NCBI GenBank assembly: GCA_964016885.1
Contig: OZ024741.1
Coordinates: forward strand, 329,158,001 to 329,222,000
Source of the DNA: Eledone cirrhosa
Taxonomy: Eukaryota
Length of the DNA stretch: 64,000 nucleotides
Direction: 5' to 3'
The translations under genes and the position numbers were made by a program. Under the pieces are notes generated by a model. It saw only the letters and a list, made by a program, of their open reading frames with translations, was not told the origin of the DNA and made no database searches. Each line of letters opens with the position of its first letter. Positions within the stretch are counted from its first letter, which is position 1. Of the stretch, positions 1,848 through 50,545 are shown one piece after another.

Positions 1848-3054
1848 TGCAAGCACTTTAAGCGGGTAAGCAAGAGTATTATAGTGGTTGTAGTGGGAGG
1901 GTATTTTTTGTATAGATCAAAAAAGTATGTGTGCAGAAAAAGAAAAGAAAAAGAAAAAGAAAAAGAAAAAGAAAGTTATAGTTTTCGCATCCACCACCAT
2001 TTTCACATTCGGAAAAAGGAAGTTATAGTTTTCACATCCATCACATATGTTACGATGAATTCGTATTGAATGTTTGATGTAGTAAATGATTGTAACATAT
2101 TGAGGCTCAGTGTTATTTAATACATATTTATAGAATAGGTTCTTTCTGCTGCGAGAATTTACAGTGGTTTATTATCCGGAAGTAGGTGTGTAATTAAGTG
2201 AAGTTAATGCGTAAGGGGAGGTAACTAGCTGATTCTCATAACTAAATTCATTGTTCTAACATACATTATATGGTACCTCAATTGAGTCCCTTATATAAAA
2301 GGTTATATATTTATATTTAATTTTAAATACAGTCTACTCTATCATAATGTATTAAAGGTATCTACAGGAAGTTGATTACTCCTTATTATATATCGCTATT
2401 ATTGAACTTCCCACAGAAAGTGCTATATCTTTATATCAAAATTCACTGTAAATACAGTCTACTCTCAAAACATATCAAAGGATCAATTAGAATTTTGTCT
2501 ACATAATCCCTGGTAAGCTATAGAGCAGCGTACGGCTGTTTGCACGATAAAATCAAATACATCTCTTGGGTAAACAAATACATCTCTCATTTACAATGTC
2601 ATTAATCTATCCATCAAGTTATACATGCATATATAATTCATATACAATTCATTGCACCACCCTACATATAAGTTAGACAGATCCCTTATGTTAATAAATT
2701 AATCCTATATATATCTGATGTTATTACTCTATACATTTAATTACAGATGCATATATAATTCACTGCCGTATCTAGTATTTAAAGTTTATATAGACTGTAT
2801 TATATTTCAATCCCTATATAATTATAAGTAATTAAAAGTAATTATATTAAAAGTTGGTGTTTATGGGGACATTTCTAGGGTATAAAGTTATAGATAGATA
2901 GAATGATTTGTGTCGAGGAAAGGGTGGATCAGAGAGTGTGGTGTAGTGGTGGAAGGCAAGCCCTTGAGGTGTAGTGTTAGAAGCGGTGATGGGTTCTAAT
3001 CTGACATTGTTATATATTGGGTTTAAAGCTTTGGAAGGAGTGTCGGAAGCAGTG

Positions 3055-5449
3055 TTGGCACGACGCAAACACTTTCGATTTTTTATTAAGGAGGTTAAGG
3101 TTTGAAAAGATTATAGTATGGGTCTCTAGTAGACAAAGGTTACAGAATGTATTAGGTGGTTTGTAGGATGCCGCCTTACCTATCACTTCCCATTGAAGTG
3201 TATATGATCTATTTCTAGTTTTCAGATAGTGTATGTAGCTAGATAGTGAAGTGGAGTTGGCTAGACTGTGTTTTTTTGAAAGAATGGGGATGTGAGTTGT
3301 ATCTCGTTTTGAAGCAGTTCGAAGTAGAGCCTATATAGGTTTCAGAAGTTCTGACCGTGCATGAGTAGATGATGTCCTTGATTGAGCAGTTTTTACCTAA
3401 AGGGCAGGTTCTATTAGATCTACAGTTACAATTATTTTGGATGTTAACCTGTCGGTTATTATGTTGTGTAGAAGTTTGGTTGCTAGGTATTGCATTATAG
3501 CTATGAAGATTGTCGTTCCTAATGTTATTGATTTCATTATTGTTATTACTGTTATTACTATTGATATCAGGGTTAGCAGTTTTTACGTTGTTTTGAAAGT
3601 TTACCCCCTGCTGTGTTTTAGTTTGTTGAAAGTAAGTATTAATCTTTCATTTATTGCTAATAGCTATGTGGTATGCTATGTTTAGGCGTGGTAGAGTAGG
3701 AGATTTTAATTGTTTTAATTTATAAGACTATGGTACTTGTGGCCAGATGGGAAGTTTTTATCCAGGAGTGAGAAGAAAGCCTTAGGTAGATTGGTAGAGA
3801 CGTTTAGATTGAAAGGGGGGGTTGAAAAATGTATTAGTTCTTCTATTTTTGTTTTTTTATATCTGTTGAAGTGTTTCCGTTTATGGTATTTTGGTGTCTT
3901 CTCTGGTGTGAGTTATGTTTGTTGCTACCCTTTGTATTAGTGTGTGTGTGGTTATTACTCCTATTACTATTTTTCCTCGTGATCATATTGTGAGAAATAA
4001 TGTTGTAACTATGTGTTTTTATAGGTAGGAACTCAATCTCATTATTATGGCCTGATCTAGCTAATGCCTGATTATAGTATTGTGAGTTTTTGCTAAATAT
4101 GGTTTCGTCAAAAGATAGATTAAAGATTCTATTGGATATTCCTTTAGAGATAGAGTTTAATATTGGTCTAGGGTGGTTAGACTTGGTATCTACGTAAATT
4201 AGTTTTTCGTTAGGTTTATGGAATGGTGTATATATCCTTGAGTCTAGGTAAAGGGTAGCATCAAGGAAGTTAACGTTTTTAGTGTTTTTGTCTATGGTGA
4301 TACTTAGGTTATAGTTTTTGAAAGTTTTATGCAATAGTTTCCTAGTTCTTTCTATATTAAATTTGTTATAGTCTATAAGGAGTAGTGCATCATCGCGGTA
4401 CAAACCACCGTTGAGGTATGGTAGGTCCTTATGGATTTCGTTTAGTAGGTATAGGCCCACCAAATCAGTGACCTCCGCCGAGTCACTAGATCCCATGGTT
4501 ATGTCAAAATTGTTATGCGTATCCTTGCGGGTCCATAACTGATCTTCAAAAGTGATTACGGTTTTACGGGCCGCAAGTATGACATCAATCTGGGGTCTAG
4601 TCAGGTCACTATTGTTCATGGCCATAATTAGTGCCTTATTTAATAGGATAGGGGAAATAGAGGTGTAGTATGAATTGATATCAAACTGAATAAATTTTTT
4701 AGTTTTGTTCTCTTTGATATCCTTAGACCATTCAATAACTTCCCCCGTATTTCCCCACTGTTTAAGGTATATTTTGTGTTTAATCTGTGGGATAATTTTA
4801 TCTAAAATGTTCTTACTGATAATGCCAATGTCAAACTTGGAAGGGCAGATTAGTCTAATCGAAGGGTTACTAATGAAATCCTCCTTATGGTCCTTCAGAG
4901 AGAATCTAGGGGGGGGGGTCGGGGTGTATGGTTGTGTATGTCTCTGAAGTCCCAATTTGGACACTATATTACGGCCTTCCTAATTAATATCTTCTAGGTT
5001 TTTCATAGTAGTTTTCTTATAGCTCCTGTGTAGTTCTTTATATATAAATTTTCTATATGTATCATAATCTAGGCTGTATATGTTATTAGTTTTGTCCGCA
5101 TGCACAATAATTTTACTACTTGTTTTGAATCCATTAATAGAGGAGTTGAGTTTGTTTAAGAAGGTGTTGTTTCTATTACGATGCTTTTTGTATTTAATGT
5201 TCTTAACTAATTTTATTAGGTCATTTTCAAAGGTGTTTAGTAGTGTGTTGTGAGGAAGGCTTCTAAAAGTTTTAAAGCCGAAGGAGTCGAATTTGTTAGT
5301 ATCATCAATTTTGTTAGATCTGTTTTTATCATAATGGAATGTCCTCCATCTCACTCTATTGATAAAGGGGTTGATACTATTGATCAATAATTTTTCGTAT
5401 GTATCTTTGGATGGTATTGGTATGTTCTTAGTTGATCTTTGATCAGCAT
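3055..5449 (-). pseudogene. PLE-A polyprotein (N-terminal domain, RT, GIY-YIG), frameshifted
   Basis: STKNIPIP and RVRWR N-terminal motifs, HADKT, FDI, MGSSDSAEV, LYRDD and NFLD in ORFs 4980-5387 and 3843-4964. CNCRSNRTCPL...IIY...YIGSTSNCFKTRYNSH reads at about 3300-3430. Probable ATG at 5449. Confidence 0.9.
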
Positions 5450-5498
5450 ACTGGTAATTTAATGTATGTTAGCTCAACAGTATGGAGCAGTTAATAAT

Positions 5499-6041
5499 AT
5501 TAAGGAAACTATTTATAGTTATGTATATTTTAAACTTTTTATAGTTATGTATATTTTAAACTATAAAAAGGGAAGGTCGGTAATTTATTACTACCTTATT
5601 ACCAGTAAGATAAATAGCTCAATGTAAGAACATCAGTTGTTCTACAGAGCAGTTATATAGAATTCACAAGAATCAAAGCTATGTTCAAAGCATTTATTCA
5701 CTTACAATTGTTTCATCCAAACCTAGGCTTGGAGTCTCCAGAGCATTTTTCAATGCTTGTACATATAATTGACCTCCTATCCAACGCAAGAGACATACAG
5801 ATACATATATATATATTGATGTACAGTGGAGTGACATATATTATACTATACTATATTTGTACAGCAATTTAAAATCAAATTTAAAATCAAAATTAAAATA
5901 CATGCGGCAGATAACACAGATAATGCAATAGGATAGTTCGATAATCAGATCTAGTAGATAGTGTATGCGTTAGTCATACATGGTGCAAGTAAGTGTGTCT
6001 CATTTATATACGAGTATTGTGTGGCAAGGTGTTACATGTAA
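5499..6041 (-). repeat. 5' pseudo-LTR of PLE-A
   Basis: Near-identical to 1343-1847; contains HHR. Confidence 0.9.
5699..5745 (-). ncRNA. Type I hammerhead-like ribozyme (CUGGAGA core) in PLE-A 5' pLTR
   Basis: ugcu-CUGGAGA-c-uccaagccu/agguuugga-u-GAAAC-aauu-GUA-agug. Confidence 0.7.
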
Positions 6042-8629: not shown

Positions 8630-8888
8630 GAAAATTTAAGTAAGTAAAAAAATTTTTAAAAATTTTTTTAAAAAAATATTTTCTTATTTTACGTCTTTTA
8701 TATTATTGTTCTGCATTCTCCTGCATTGAACCACCTAGGTACTATGACATAACCTGTGTATTTGCTGGCATGGGCGTGCATCTGTGCGCTTATGTTAGTT
8801 GATATATTAAATTATCTATATATATATATATATATAGATGAGATTCTACAGCACTAGAACTGTTTCATTCTTTAGAAATCATCAGGAA

Positions 8889-11879: not shown

Positions 11880-12032
11880 TTCATTATTTAACGATCGTTT
11901 CTAGGACATATATGTGTTAGAATTGGTATGCATACTCAACAGATCTATGTACAAAATTATACAAAATTATACAAATTATCAAATAGAATATACATACCAA
12001 CACATACATATGCCGTCTTCAGAAATAATGAA
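11880..12032 (-). ncRNA. Type I hammerhead ribozyme with about 114-nt stem II
   Basis: Reverse complement of 19001-19153. Confidence 0.85.
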
Positions 12033-19000: not shown

Positions 19001-19153
19001 TTCATTATTTCTGAAGACGGCATATGTATGTGTTGGTATGTATATTCTATTTGATAATTTGTATAATTTTGTATAATTTTGTACATAGATCTGTTGAGTA
19101 TGCATACCAATTCTAACACATATATGTCCTAGAAACGATCGTTAAATAATGAA
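19001..19153 (+). ncRNA. Type I hammerhead ribozyme with about 114-nt stem II
   Basis: uucauuauuu-CUGAAGA-[ggcauaug..uugguauguauauuc/gaguaugcauaccaa..cauauaugucc]-GAAAC-gauc-GUU-aaauaaugaa; 10-bp stem I. Confidence 0.87.
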
Positions 19154-26839: not shown

Positions 26840-27046
26840 ATAATAATAAATTTGAAGACTAAAATCCAAAGAGGCCTCGATAAGGATAAATATATATCAA
26901 ATATATAAGAACCGTAGAGCAAACATTTATTAAAATAACAGATTAAAGTTTAAGCAAAGAATCGCTGCTGTCACCCTTAACGGGATCTTCAGAAGATCCC
27001 GTTAAGGGTGAAAGCAGCGATTCTTTGCTTAAACTTTAATCTGTTA

Positions 27047-27054
<8 letters not shown>
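26837..27054 (-). mobile_element. PLE family C 3' tail with a 127-bp fold-back centred on the HHR core
   Basis: 26928-27054 is a palindrome (one mismatch) with apex gatcttc-a-gaagatc; same sequence as 31150-31210 and 37277-37345. Confidence 0.88.
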
Positions 27055-27113
<59 letters not shown>

Positions 27114-31074: not shown

Positions 31075-32901
<1,827 letters not shown>

Positions 32902-35002: not shown

Positions 35003-36527
35003 CTACGAAGTCCGATTTAGGTAGACTTAGTAAAAGGATTTTAGATAGGATATACCTGAAATTAGTAGTTTGGCCCCTCTTGCACTGTGGAACAATTCTT
35101 TCGCAGTAATTGATTGGTTCAACGGCATATGCAACAAGGAACATTGCCGTTTTATCTAATTCGACATCAATAATTACTACTCCTCCATCACTTTACCACT
35201 TCTCCTTAGAGCTATCAATTTGGCTAAAACACTCACAGGGGTTAAGGATTTCGAAGTTGATGTCATCCTCAATGCCCGTAAGTCGGTGATTAATTTCGAC
35301 GACTCTATTTGGATTAAAAAATCTAATAGTACCCCATTCGACGTGAGTATGGGCGCCAGCGATTCTGCGGAGGTTACTTATCTTATCGGCCTTTTCCTTC
35401 TTTTCTCTATCAAGGAAGAATTCCCCAATGTGGGCGGTGGTTTGTACCGTGATGACGGTCTTTTGACAAAGTGGGGCCCACATGCTTGCGACAGGTTCAG
35501 AAAAGAACTCATAGCCTTCTTTAAAGGCTTCAACCTCTCCATACAGGTTGAGGCCAACCTCTCGGTCGTTAATTACCTCGAAGTTACCCTCGATTTGTCG
35601 AATGGCTTGCACTACCCGTATAGAAAGCCGAATGATACGCTTAATTACATAAGTAAGCATTCTAACCATCCTGCCAGCATAACCAAGAACCTGGTAAGAA
35701 ACGTTTCGTTGAGGCTTTCCCGTCTATCTACAAACGAGCATATTTTCAACGACCATTCCATATATTACAATGAAGCTCTTGCTCGGAGTGGATTTGTCGA
35801 TAAGGTAGCTTATACAGAGTACGAGAATAGACCTAGGAAAAATAGATCCCGAGGCATTATATGGTATAACCCACCATATACTATGGAGTGGCCACACTTT
35901 TAGCTAAGATCTTTCTCTCCCTTATTATGAAGCATTTCCCCCAGCACATAAATATAGTAAAATTTTTAATACCATTAAATTTCTTACTCTACGACACCTA
36001 ACCTTGCACATAACATCACAGCTTCAAATTTACCTAAATTACCTAGCCGTAGGAACACGTGCAACCCTGTAGCTAGTACTAACTGTAATTGTAGGAATCG
36101 GGTTGACTGCCCCGCCCCTATCCGGGAAATGCCTCTTTAGTAACGTTGTCTACAAATGTAAGGTTGAAACACCCACGTCCCGTAGGGCCTACATAGGGTT
36201 AACCGCCAATAGATTCAAGCAGCGTCTTTACATGCATACCCATTCTTTTCTTAACCCTTTAAGAAGGAATATGACGTCACTTTCGGCTTATATCTGGAGT
36301 CTAAAAGACAACGACACCCAATATAAGTTACACTGGGAGATCCTAGCTTAGGCTAGATCGTATAACGGAAATAAAAGACCATGTGACCTCTGCGCCGATG
36401 AGGCCCTGGAAATACTCTACGCCAAAGACCACATCTTAAACAAAATATCTGAGGCAATTTTGGCTTGTAAACATAAATTGCACAAAACTATACTGTATTA
36501 TAGCCCCACATTATACCCTAACGGATA
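35003..36527 (+). pseudogene. PLE-C RT + GIY-YIG (disrupted)
   Basis: TKSDLG, FDI, MGASDSAEV, LYRDDG, WYNPPY, VYKC..YIGLTANRFKQR..H; stops and frameshifts. Confidence 0.9.
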
Positions 36528-37256
36528 GTACGAACTATACGCGGATATTTTACGTCTTGATGTGCTAGCTAAGTATATGTTATGTTAATACCATCACTTA
36601 TTCGTATAGGTAAGTATATATTACCAATATGTTTTGTGAAGGTACGTATATTTTCTCGTACGTATATTTGCTTGTATATGTTATTGGCGTATATATTATA
36701 TATACTGGAACATGTGCATTTGGTTATGTGTATACGTGAGTTTTGCGTCTGTGTGAGTATGCGGGTTCGTACGTATGTAGGGTGTGTGTATATGTGTAGT
36801 TTGTGTTTTGGTTGACGTAGTCCGCGAACATGTGTGTCTTTGCATGTGGGTGTGTGTGTGCGCGCGTTGTATACGTATTTATGCGTGTATATTTATATAC
36901 GTTTATTTAATTATGTATACACGCACACACACACACACATGTGTATATATATATGTTTTATTTATTTTTTATGTGTATTATTTGGTGTATCCGTTCGTAT
37001 GTGTGCGGTACAGGCGTTGCGTGGGTTCTGTATATACGTGTGTCTGTGTTTTTTTGTTGTTTTTTTGTGTACGTGCTTGTATTTGCATACCCATGGGGAG
37101 TGTTTTCGTGTACGCTTGTGTATGTACGTATATGGATGTGTGTATGTATATATTTAATTTCAATTACCTCTGTATTTTATTTATTTTATTCTTAACTCTG
37201 AAGCCGAGAATCATTCGGTTTCCTAAATAGAATTTTAGTAAGTCAATCTGCGTTCA

Positions 37257-37330
37257 CAGATTGACTTTTTTAGTTTCAGAAGATCCTGTTAAGGGTGAAA
37301 GCAGCGATTCTTTGCTTAAACTTTAATCTG
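37257..37330 (+). ncRNA. Hammerhead-like fold with CAGAAGA core (PLE-C)
   Basis: cagauuga..aguuu-CAGAAGA-u-ccu guuaa ggg-u-GAAA-gca gcgauucuu ugc-UU-aaacu-uuaaucug. Confidence 0.72.
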
Positions 37331-37338
37331 TTATTTTA

Positions 37339-37374
<36 letters not shown>

Positions 37375-37437
37375 TTATTAAAATAACAGATTAAAGTTTA
37401 AGCAAAGAATCGCTGCTTTCACCCTTATATATACACA

Positions 37438-42237: not shown

Positions 42238-42292
42238 ATTACCTGACAATTGTTTCTTCCAGAGGGGAGTCTGGAATCATCGGAGCATAAGG
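42238..42292 (-). ncRNA. Hammerhead-like fold with CCGAUGA core
   Basis: CCGAUGA-uuccaga cucccc ucuggaa-GAAAC-aauu-GUC; perfect 7-bp stem II, weak stem I. Confidence 0.62.
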
Positions 42293-43027: not shown

Positions 43028-43108
43028 GCTGCTTTCACCCTTAACTTCTTCTGAAACTAAAAACATCAATCTGTGAACGCAGAAGTAAATATTTCGAAAA
43101 ACGTTACA
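43028..43108 (-). mobile_element. PLE-C fragment retaining the CAGAAGA core
   Basis: gctgctttcacccttaac..tcttctgaaactaa..tcaatctgtgaacgcagaa matches 31184-31265. Confidence 0.75.
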
Positions 43109-47720: not shown

Positions 47721-47909
47721 TCTGGTAGACACGGCGTAGACTATCATTATGGCGGCAAACCGTACGTTGAATCAACACCGTTCCTAAGATGATTGGCTGT
47801 GCGATTTGAGGGACCTTTGGCTGCTCTTTCTAGCGTACAGTTTCTGCCACCTATACGCCTGTTTCAACAACTGCTGTACATCTATTGTTGCAGTTGCTGT
47901 TGTCACCCT

Positions 47910-48330
47910 GCGATTTTTGTTGTCATAGCAACTGTTGTGACTATTGATATTGTTGTAGGTATTGTTGTGGTTACTGTTATTGTTGTGGTTATTGTTATTG
48001 TTGTAGTTGTGGTTATTGTTATTGTTGTAGTTGTGGTTATTGTTGTTGTTGTAGTTGTGGTTATTGTTATTGTTGTAGTTGTGGTTATTGTTATTGTTGT
48101 AGTTGTGGTTATTGTTGTTGCGTTGTTAAATGTTGTTGTTGTTGTAACTGTTGTTATTGCTGATGTTACTCTTAATGTTCTTGTTGATATTATTGTTGTT
48201 GTTGATATTGTTGTTACAGTTGAAACTTTATTTAGTGTTATTGTTGTTGTTGTTGCTGTTGTTGATGTTATTGTTGTTTTTTGTTACAGGTGTTGTTACT
48301 ACTACTGTTGTTATTACTGTTGTTGTTATT
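47910..48330. repeat. (GTT/ATT) cryptic trinucleotide repeat with about 24-bp subrepeat
   Basis: gttattgttattgttgtagttgtg repeated. Confidence 0.85.
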
Positions 48331-48611
48331 ATTAACTTTGCCTTTCATCCTTACGGGGTCGATAAAATAATGCACTGGGGTAATTGCTGGCCTTGTGCCA
48401 AAAAGTAGAAACAATTATCTTTATATATGTTGTTACTGTTGTTGATGTTGTTAGTGTTGTGTTCTTTTGCTGAGATTTTTTATTGTTTTTGTTGATAAAA
48501 GGCTTTCCAGTCGTGCCCATCCCATTTTTAGGTTACATCACTGCTGCTTCTGCTGCAGACGTTGCTATTTCTGCTAATATAGGTGTTGTTTCTACTGCTG
48601 ATGATGAAGAT

Positions 48612-49962
48612 GTTACTACTATTGGTGCTGCTGTTCTGCTGTTGGTGCCGTTACTGTTTCTGTTGCTACTAATCGTGCTGCTGTGCTGCTGTTGGTGCTG
48701 TTACTGTTACTGTTGCTACCAATGGTGCTGCTGTGCTGCTGTTGGTGCTGTTACTGTTTCTGTTGCTACCAATGGTGCTGCTGTGCTGCTGTTGGTGCTG
48801 TTACTGTTACTGTTGGTACTATTGGTGCTGCTGTTACTGTTTCTGTTGCTACTAATCGTGCTGCTGTGCTGCTGTTGGTGCTGTTACTGTTACTGTTGCT
48901 ACCAATGGTGCTGCTGTGCTGCTGTTGGTGCTGTTACTGTTTCTGTTGCTACCAATGGTGCTGCTGTGCTGCTGTTGGTGCTGTTACTGTTACTGTTGGT
49001 ACTATTGGTGCTGATGTTACTGTTTCTGTTGCTACTAATCGTGCTGCTGTGCTGCTGTTGGTGCTGTTACTGTTACTGTTGCTACCAATGGTGCTGCTGT
49101 GCTGCTGTTGGTGCTGTTACTGTTTCTGTTGCTACCAATGGTGCTGCTGTGCTGCTGTTGGTGCTGTTACTGTTACTGTTGGTACTATTGGTGCTGCTGT
49201 TACTGTTTCTGTTGCTACTAATCGTGCTGCTGTGCTGCTGTTGGTGCTGCTACTGTTACTGTTGCTACCAATGGTGCTGCTGTGCTGCTGTTGGTGCTGT
49301 TACTGTTACTGTTGCTACTATTGGTGCTGCTGTTGGTGCTGTTACTGTTACTGCTACTACTATTGGTGCTGCTGTTGGTGCTGTTACTGTTACTGCTACT
49401 ACTATTGGTGCTGCTGTTGGTGCTGTTACTGTTACTGCTACTACTATTGGTGCTGCCGTTGGTGCTGTTACTGTTACTGCTACTACTATTGGTGCTGCTG
49501 TTGGTGCTGTTACTGTTACTGCTACTACTATTGGTGCTGCTGTTGGTGCTGTTACTGTTACTGCTACTACTATTGGTGCTGCTGTTGGTGCTGTTACTGT
49601 TACTGCTACTACTATTGGTGCTGCCGTTGGTGCTGTTACTGTTACTGCTACTACTATTGGTGCTGCTGTTGGTGCTGTTACTGTTACTGCTACTACTATT
49701 GGTGCTGCTGTTGGTGCTGTTACTGTTACTGCTACTACTATTGGTGCTGCTGTTGGTGCTGTTACTGTTACTGCTACTACTATTGGTGCTGCTGTTGGTG
49801 CTGTTACTGTTACTGCTACTACTATTGGTGCTGCTGTTGGTGCTGTTACTGTTACTGCTACTACTATTGGTGCTGCTGTTGGTGCTGTTACTGTTACTGC
49901 TACTACTATTGGTGCTGCTGTTGGTGCTGTTACTGTTACTGTTGCTACTATTGGTGCTGCTG
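48612..49962. repeat. Minisatellite: 183-bp higher-order repeat (about 3.7 copies) followed by a 42-bp unit (about 15 copies)
   Basis: AATCG marker at 48671, 48854, 49037 and 49220; then attggtgctgctgttggtgctgttactgttactgctactact repeated. Confidence 0.92.
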
Positions 49963-50545
49963 TTTTTTTTGTTTGTCTTTTTTACGGCAGGCGCCTGAGG
50001 ATTAGCCTCAGTCGCGCTAGACTGGCGTGTGGGAGACGCACGAGTTCATCTATGCTGGAGCCGAGTTGGTGGTGATAACAATCCACCATCAAGGCTGGAC
50101 ATCTCATCCAAGGATGTTCGGAGGATTCTTCTTCCTCTCCGCACAGACGGCATGTGTTGATTTCCGCTTGGCCGATCATATGGAGCCTCCTCCTTAATGA
50201 CGTGTGATGTCCACTGCGGAAGCGGACGAGATGGTTCCTATCTGCTTTGGAGAGAGTTTGCTCACTCTCTTTATTTGGGTGGCGGCTAAAGACTGACTGT
50301 AGACGTTGATGCTGGAGCGGTGGTGGGCGAAATTCCTGGCAAATGACGGCGTGTTGGGTGGTGGCATCGATTGAACTTTCCAGTTGAGTAGATGCTGAGC
50401 CGTGTTACGCCTGGGCGTCCGCCAGTTCATTCCATTTAATGTTGCAGTGCCCCGGGACACAGAGAGCTGCTAAGGTTCACCCCTTTGTTATTTTGTTAGC
50501 GATCCCTTGCAGCTCGGTAATGAAAGTGTCATGGGGGAAGGGGTT
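49963..50545 (-). mobile_element. Non-LTR retrotransposon 3' fragment with CCHC knuckle, inserted in the minisatellite
   Basis: CRLCGEEEESSEHPWMRC (CX2CX8HX4C) followed by an A-rich tail; the minisatellite resumes at about 50550. Confidence 0.72.

What the first reader, a model, noticed from the sequence alone, without database searches (positions are those of the whole stretch)
37257..37330. Hammerhead with a non-canonical CAGAAGA core (U4->A) fixed across a PLE family
Seen: full type I geometry (stem I aguuu/aaacu plus cagauuga/uuaaucug, stem II ccc or ccu/ggg, stem III A-gca/ugc-U, CUU triplet). The normally conserved CUGANGA reads CAGAAGA in all copies here (37277, 31206, 43048 and the palindrome apex at 26990), so this is not single-copy decay. 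It occupies the same position as canonical HHRs in the other PLEs. Unlike them, it has a real stem III. Standard descriptors would miss it.
Basis: partly seen in the sequence, partly recalled or inferred. Interest (0 to 1): 0.8.

Follow-up and report, generated by a model that had tools for sequence, protein, structure and literature searches.

The report
Jumping-gene hammerhead with swapped core base
A very abundant jumping gene in this animal genome carries a hammerhead-shaped RNA whose normally fixed core U is an A in 99% of copies; the shape has been kept while its loops changed, so it likely still matters, probably as a slowed self-cutter, though cutting is untested.

Summary
Observation confirmed genome-wide: the 33-base motif occurs 15,394 times with A at core position 4 and 139 times with any other base. 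It lies in the pLTR of a recently active Penelope-like element with the Hydra-clade protein motifs. A4 predates today's burst: 22 of 23 aligned copies of an older subfamily, picked by an anchor outside the motif, have it. Old and young consensus differ at 0 of 36 core and stem positions but 7 of 22 loop and bulge positions (p=6e-4). The U·U pair and U17 are ordinary in Hydra hammerheads. A canonical relative (50% protein identity) has the same stem III, so only U4A is odd. Two other families here carry U4C, one with compensatory stem changes. Corrections: 43053 is a broken copy, 26990 is a fold-back whose other strand reads CTGAAGA, and the focal copy is dead. Cleavage is untested. Verdict: new core variant of a known ribozyme, likely slowed. 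The scan earlier noted other core variants (U3-A8, G3-C8) in Penelope elements on other DNA, not this one.

The parts
37257..37330 (+). Type I hammerhead-shaped motif with U4A core (focal copy; stem II carries a copy-specific C-to-T change)
37277..37283 (+). Core CAGAAGA; position 4 (A) at 37278
37284..37296 (+). U.U pair at 10.1/11.1, 3-bp stem II, loop GTTAA
   Evidence: U.U common in Hydra hammerheads
37297..37317 (+). GAAA, stem III (A-GCA / TGC-T) with 9-nt loop, U17; predicted cut after 37317
37318..37344 (+). 3' strand of stem I and main 3' end of the element, about 27 bases past the predicted cut, joined to (AT)n
37372..37427 (-). Inverted fragment of the element's 3' end; would pair with 37290-37345 in a read-through RNA
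37240..37256 (+). Junction: about 315 bases of 3' UTR missing relative to the 31-kb copy, joined by a short fold-back of the distal stem
35052..36528 (+). Broken RT and GIY-YIG ORF of the host Penelope-like element (frameshifts and stops)
31159..31232 (-). Second copy with the majority family sequence (stem II CCC/GGG); core 31206-31212
32145..32777 (-). Endonuclease part of the ORF, continuous with the 31.2-kb motif through a 930-base 3' UTR
26886..27091 (.). Fold-back palindrome with apex at core position 4 (26991): plus strand CAGAAGA, minus strand CTGAAGA
43028..43083 (-). Decayed, truncated copy (core 43047-43053)

Best explanation
This is the pLTR hammerhead of a Penelope-like element with Hydra-clade motifs; its core U4 became A in an ancestral master copy, its fold has since been conserved, and it likely acts as a slowed self-cleaving RNA. 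Shown: position in the pLTR (about 190 bases before the start codon and 930 after the stop), A4 fixed in young and old subfamilies, core and stems unchanged while loops, bulge and N7 change, and a canonical relative with the same geometry. Inferred: the four-pair stem III with a 9-nt loop would let it fold as a monomer; the U-rich stem I bulge and the G...A loop II could dock and partly offset the loss of U4; slow cutting after CUU would trim some transcripts while leaving most templates whole. Reverse transcription needs whole templates: 36,244 copies read through the site.
For: A4 15,394 vs 139. Older subfamily found by an upstream anchor: A4 in 22 of 23 aligned copies of 24, N7 split 12 A / 10 T. 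Young vs old consensus: 0 of 36 constrained positions differ vs 7 of 22 free positions (p=6e-4) and 23 of 79 in the 40 bases on each side (p=8e-5). The one distal-stem change is G.U to A-U and keeps the pair. The catalytic G8 and G12, C3-G8 and A15.1-U16.1 are all kept. Canonical family D (7,276 matches, 99 of 100 listed have U4) has 50% protein identity, falls in the same 6-row clade of 18 rows (98/100) and has the same U.U, 3-bp stem II and stem III. Non-U4 recurs: a U4C family with 5,749 matches (97 of 100 listed C) and compensatory changes in stems II and III, and another with 250 matches (78 C, 21 T, 1 A of 100 listed). A natural viroid U4C variant has low activity in vitro yet stays infectious (PMC3088659, discussion passage).
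Against: No cleavage data. In a type III hammerhead library, CUGA-region single mutants had low activity (PMC9901934 passage; the U4A value itself not seen). Stems never vary within the A4 lineage, so there is no two-sided covariation and only one deep comparison (old vs young) supports constraint. The old consensus rests on 24 decayed copies. The hammerhead fold is not the predicted minimum (-10.6 vs -13.4 kcal/mol), though the same holds for canonical D (-4.2 vs -7.6). 5' junctions show no marked pile-up at the cut site (865 vs 582 and 688 in control windows), but canonical D shows none either (174 vs 113). In the anole element, catalytic mutants did not affect insertion in vitro (PMC11167929 passage).
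Confidence: 0.5

Rival explanations
1. Catalytically dead but structurally needed: the fold is kept as a binding or positioning signal for the element's RT-endonuclease next to the reverse-transcription start sites, and cutting has been given up.
For: The two 3' ends lie 27 and about 115 bases past the motif. 36,244 copies read through the cut site. Cleavage was dispensable in vitro in the anole element. Non-U4 cores recur in this genome.
Against: All other catalytic bases stay unchanged between old and young masters while N7 varies; a protein would have to read exactly the ribozyme core.
Confidence: 0.3
2. Fully active variant: loop II docking on the stem I bulge rescues U4A to near-normal rates.
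For: Long bulged stem I and closed stem III; loop II keeps first G and last A in the main subfamily variants GTTAA, GCTTA, GTATA, GTAATA. Perreault et al. suggest tertiary contacts offset core variants.
Against: Three weakening features together (A4, U.U, U17); low activity of CUGA mutants in a tertiary-stabilised construct; stem I pairing probability is only 0.07 in the predicted ensemble.
Confidence: 0.13
3. Neutral relic: a crippled hammerhead carried along by a successful master, with no selection on it.
For: Post-insertion copies decay evenly; constraint rests on a few master lineages; Naiad elements thrive without canonical hammerheads (PMC8557442).
Against: 0 of 36 vs 7 of 22 and 23 of 79; covariation in the U4C family.
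Confidence: 0.07

Closest known systems
Hammerheads of Hydra-clade Penelope-like elements (Craig et al. 2021, PMC8557442, File S2)
   Same: Type I, near the 3' end; 14 of 26 rows have CTGANGA-T ... T-GAA (U.U) and 10 of 26 have U17; stem III of 3-4 pairs; host protein motifs and (TA)n target match.
   Different: All 26 rows have U4; their loop III is 1-3 nt against 9 nt here; stem I here extends past a 7-nt bulge.
Minimal hammerheads of metazoan Penelope-like elements (Cervera and De la Pena 2014, PMC4209133)
   Same: pLTR location, thousands of truncated copies, a known core variant (U3-A8), low in vitro activity.
   Different: Those lack stem III and work as dimers; no position-4 variant in the two of four text parts read (supplementary figures not seen).
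Natural core variants, including viroid U4C and U10.1-U11.1 (Perreault et al. 2011, PMC3088659)
   Same: Position 4 and pair 10.1-11.1 can deviate in functional natural hammerheads.
   Different: U4A is not named in the passages and section read (figures 5, S6, S7 not seen); those variants are rare sequences, not the fixed state of a family with tens of thousands of copies.

Membership tests
Type I hammerhead ribozyme | Three stems around the core, open end in stem I | tested here: met
Type I hammerhead ribozyme | C3-G8 pair, G5, A6, A9, G12-A13-A14, A15.1-U16.1, H17 | tested here: met
   (H17 is U)
Type I hammerhead ribozyme | U at position 4 | tested here: not met
   A in 15,394 of 15,533 matches
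Type I hammerhead ribozyme | Purine-pyrimidine pair at 10.1-11.1 | tested here: not met
   U.U; a known natural variant and common in the Hydra clade
Type I hammerhead ribozyme | Stems supported by covariation | tested here: inconclusive
   Stems invariant in the A4 lineage, one G.U to A-U change; covariation only in the separate U4C family
Type I hammerhead ribozyme | Match to an Rfam hammerhead model | tested here: not met
   No hit among the 150 of 269 rows shown, none; canonical family D was also missed
Type I hammerhead ribozyme | Stem I / loop II tertiary contact | not testable with these tools
   U-rich bulge and G...A loop are present; contact inferred only
Type I hammerhead ribozyme | Site-specific self-cleavage after NUH | not testable with these tools
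   No raw RNA reads; junction test did not discriminate
Hydra clade of Penelope-like elements | Single ORF, RT then C-terminal GIY-YIG; RWK-type, DKT, CxCX5C, CxxC and CxH motifs; no CCHH | tested here: met
   709-aa ORF with RWR, DKT, CNCRNRADC, CDLC, CKH read against section 11 of PMC8557442; Pfam gave no relevant hit
Hydra clade of Penelope-like elements | pLTR tandem and inverted structure, optional tail, (TA)n target | tested here: met
   5 of 10 full-ORF loci have a sense motif before the ORF, 4 only an inverted one, 1 neither; tail and (AT)n ends
Hydra clade of Penelope-like elements | Placement with published Hydra proteins in an RT tree | not tested
   Tree holds only proteins from this genome

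The most novel reading that the evidence does not exclude
Hydra-clade elements in this genome have repeatedly replaced the U-turn uridine of their hammerheads (A once, C in two other families) while keeping the fold. Either position 4 is a natural dial that slows cutting so that templates survive to be copied, or the hammerhead has become a protein-read structure. A hidden class of non-CUGA hammerheads would then sit in elements scored as lacking one.
Probability: 0.35. Interest if true: 0.7.

Novelty: new variant of a known kind. Interest (0 to 1): 0.5.

Why it matters
What hammerheads do for Penelope-like elements is an open question (PMC8557442, PMC11167929). This genome offers a matched natural series in related elements with similar geometry: U4, A4, C4 and U3-A8. 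Rates measured on that series would show whether these elements select for fast cutting, slow cutting or only the shape. It also shows that CUGANGA searches miss some of the most abundant motifs in a genome.

Tried and rejected
Canonical sister subfamily with the same stems: two U4 patterns gave 1,187 and 1,005 matches; 24 of the 30 loci examined are fold-backs with apex at position 4, not a U4 subfamily. Origin of A4 by strand flip of the TTC-N-GAA palindrome: attractive, but T is only 34 of 100 listed non-A variants, so it is not shown. 5' junction pile-up as a trace of cleavage: ratios 1.3-1.5 in both the A4 and the canonical family, uninformative. Expression: no RNA holder listed. Other organisms: 8 of 24 runs were laid; contigs of 7 cover position 4 with no other letter listed, but depths of 2-27 for so abundant a repeat fit trace carry-over, so this was not counted as spread to other species. 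Rfam and Pfam gave nothing relevant. Folding z-scores were not significant (-1.1 to +0.4). Literature searches 'hammerhead'+'U4A' (0 papers), core spellings CAGAUGA/CAGAAGA/CAGANGA/CCGAUGA (0 occurrences in the 10 of 11 papers listed), 'U4C' (4 papers) and hammerhead+octopus+Penelope found no report of U4A. Four relevant papers were not held (PMC5785218, PMC2271363, PMC3334697, PMC147498); the first, on small variants in Penelope-like elements, could list such a core.

Full report
Setting. The window is G000:C2:329158001-329222000 of a 3.0-Gb, microsatellite-rich genome; the host was not identified. It holds remnants of several Penelope-like elements.

The observation. The motif at 37257-37330 has the stated type I geometry, A at position 4 (37278) and a predicted cut after 37317. 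CAGAAGA alone is at chance level in the window. A 33-base pattern with A4 matches 15,394 places in the genome, and the same pattern with C, G or T matches 139. In 80 stretches of 10 kb taken at even steps, 27 family hits were found; 21 cover the core and all 21 have A4. In loci chosen by protein alone, 45 of 45 cores have A4. A4 is therefore the family state.

Corrections to the window evidence. The copy at 43047-43053 lacks part of stem II and ends before stem III closes. The 26990 site is a fold-back whose apex is position 4, so the minus strand reads CTGAAGA. This junction is a hotspot: 1,187 matches to a U4 pattern, and 24 of 30 examined are such fold-backs. The focal copy is a dead insertion. 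Its ORF is broken, about 315 bases of UTR are missing, a C-to-T change in stem II leaves the hammerhead fold 7.5 kcal/mol above the predicted minimum, and a downstream inverted fragment would pair with its 3' half. The interest lies in the family, best shown by 31159-31232.

The host element. Ten loci chosen for long open frames carry 713-726 codon frames (709 aa from the start codon), with the motif about 190 bases before the start and 930 after the stop. The protein shows RWR, DKT, CxCX5C, CxxC and CxH and no CCHH, the marks given for the Hydra clade (PMC8557442 section 11). Ends lie 27 bases past the predicted cut, joined to (AT)n, or after a further tail of about 90 bases. Intact frames and near-identical copies point to recent activity (inference).

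What is unusual and what is not. In File S2 of that paper, 14 of 26 Hydra rows have the U.U pair beside stem II, 10 of 26 have U17, all have a 3-4 pair stem III and all have U4. In this genome, family D (7,276 matches, 99 of 100 listed U4) has the same U.U, 3-bp stem II and four-pair stem III with a long loop. It lies the same distance before an ORF 50% identical to ours, falls in the same clade, and has a copy at window 8879-8885. So stem III is shared and U4A is the single derived oddity.

Is the fold constrained after the change? Older subfamilies with other loops exist (130 matches, 95 of 100 listed A4). To avoid circularity, 24 old copies were fetched with an anchor upstream of the motif: 22 of the 23 that align at position 4 have A, and N7 splits 12 A to 10 T. 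Old and young consensus differ at 0 of 36 core and stem positions, at 7 of 22 loop, bulge and N7 positions (p=6e-4) and at 23 of 79 positions in the 40 bases on either side (p=8e-5). The one change in 16 distal-stem positions turns G.U into A-U. Limits: this is one deep comparison, invariant pairs prove no pairing, and the old consensus rests on decayed copies.

Position 4 varies elsewhere in the genome. A descriptor scan of the 800-kb sample gave 64 U, 15 A and 2 C. The C hits belong to a family with 5,749 matches, 97 of 100 listed CCGAWGA, linked to the element at window 3013-6041. In 10 aligned copies it shows A-U to G-C changes in stem II, which the search pattern left free, and in stem III, where the pattern allowed either purine and pyrimidine. 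Another family has C4 in 78 of 100 listed of 250 matches, with 21 T as CpG decay would give. One copy of a family near ours has the published U3-A8 core. In the 18-row tree our family and the U4C families lie in different clades, so A4 and C4 arose separately; whether the two C4 families are independent is not resolved.

Does it cut? Not shown. 36,244 copies read through the site. Junctions within three bases of the site number 865 against 582 and 688 in two control windows, and canonical D gives 174 against 113, so the test does not discriminate. The literature points both ways. CUGA-region single mutants of a type III ribozyme had low activity (PMC9901934, passages). A viroid U4C variant is weak in vitro yet infectious, and U10.1-U11.1 occurs naturally (PMC3088659, passages and section 8). 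Metazoan Penelope hammerheads are slow in vitro (PMC4209133, parts 1-2 of 4). Cleavage was dispensable for insertion by the anole element (PMC11167929, passages). That minimal-hammerhead U4 mutants are strongly impaired but not dead is recalled, not read here. Also opened without bearing on U4A: bioRxiv 2026.07.22.740005 (part 1 of 5), PMC11014351 (outline and a term search), PMC6155905 (passages). Figures and supplementary figures of the 2011 and 2014 papers were not seen and could list U4A.

Verdict. A real, family-fixed U4A variant of the Hydra-type hammerhead whose fold appears constrained. Most likely a slowed ribozyme (0.5), else a structure kept for protein recognition (0.3), a fully rescued ribozyme (0.13) or a neutral relic (0.07). 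New variant of a known kind; interest 0.5.

Noticed in passing
window 42241-42287 (-); L241-L252, L149, L188: Second high-copy family with a U4C core (CCGAWGA), 5,749 matches, compensatory changes in stems II and III; linked to the element at window 3013-6041 (-), whose own two copies of the motif are decayed.
   Followed up: yes
L140:5736-5835; L332-L341: Third family with C4 and a stem II closing a loop of about 65 bases; 250 matches, 78 of 100 listed C.
   Followed up: partly
L147:4881-4990: A family 53% identical in protein carries the published U3-A8 core with a long stem II insert; one copy seen.
   Followed up: partly
window 26991; L046-L075: Inversion junctions pile up at core position 4 (TTC-N-GAA) and at the 5' edge of stem I; family D also shows many junctions at the 5' edge of its stem I. 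Cause unexplained.
   Followed up: partly
window 8879-8885 (-); L277-L301: Canonical-core family D with the same geometry; natural control for assays.
   Followed up: yes
window 12021-12027 (-) and 19011-19017 (+), approximately: Canonical core with a stem II insert of about 130 bases in the element forming the 11.8-19.2 kb palindrome.
   Followed up: partly
L326-L331 (G000:C2:61196555 onward); G000:C4:32972971: Short tandem arrays of 103-151 base units that begin at the predicted cut site and run through the tail; could be template jumps by microhomology or copies of a cleavage product.
   Followed up: no
L180: Tandem array of 310-base units, each with a canonical hammerhead (11 units seen): retrozyme-like satellite.
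   Followed up: no
window 9019, 28238, 28340, 30175: Other canonical hammerhead cores of further repeat families, with short palindromic stem III.
   Followed up: no
window 47800-50075: Low-complexity tandem repeat (42-base unit) with long open frames on both strands.
   Followed up: no
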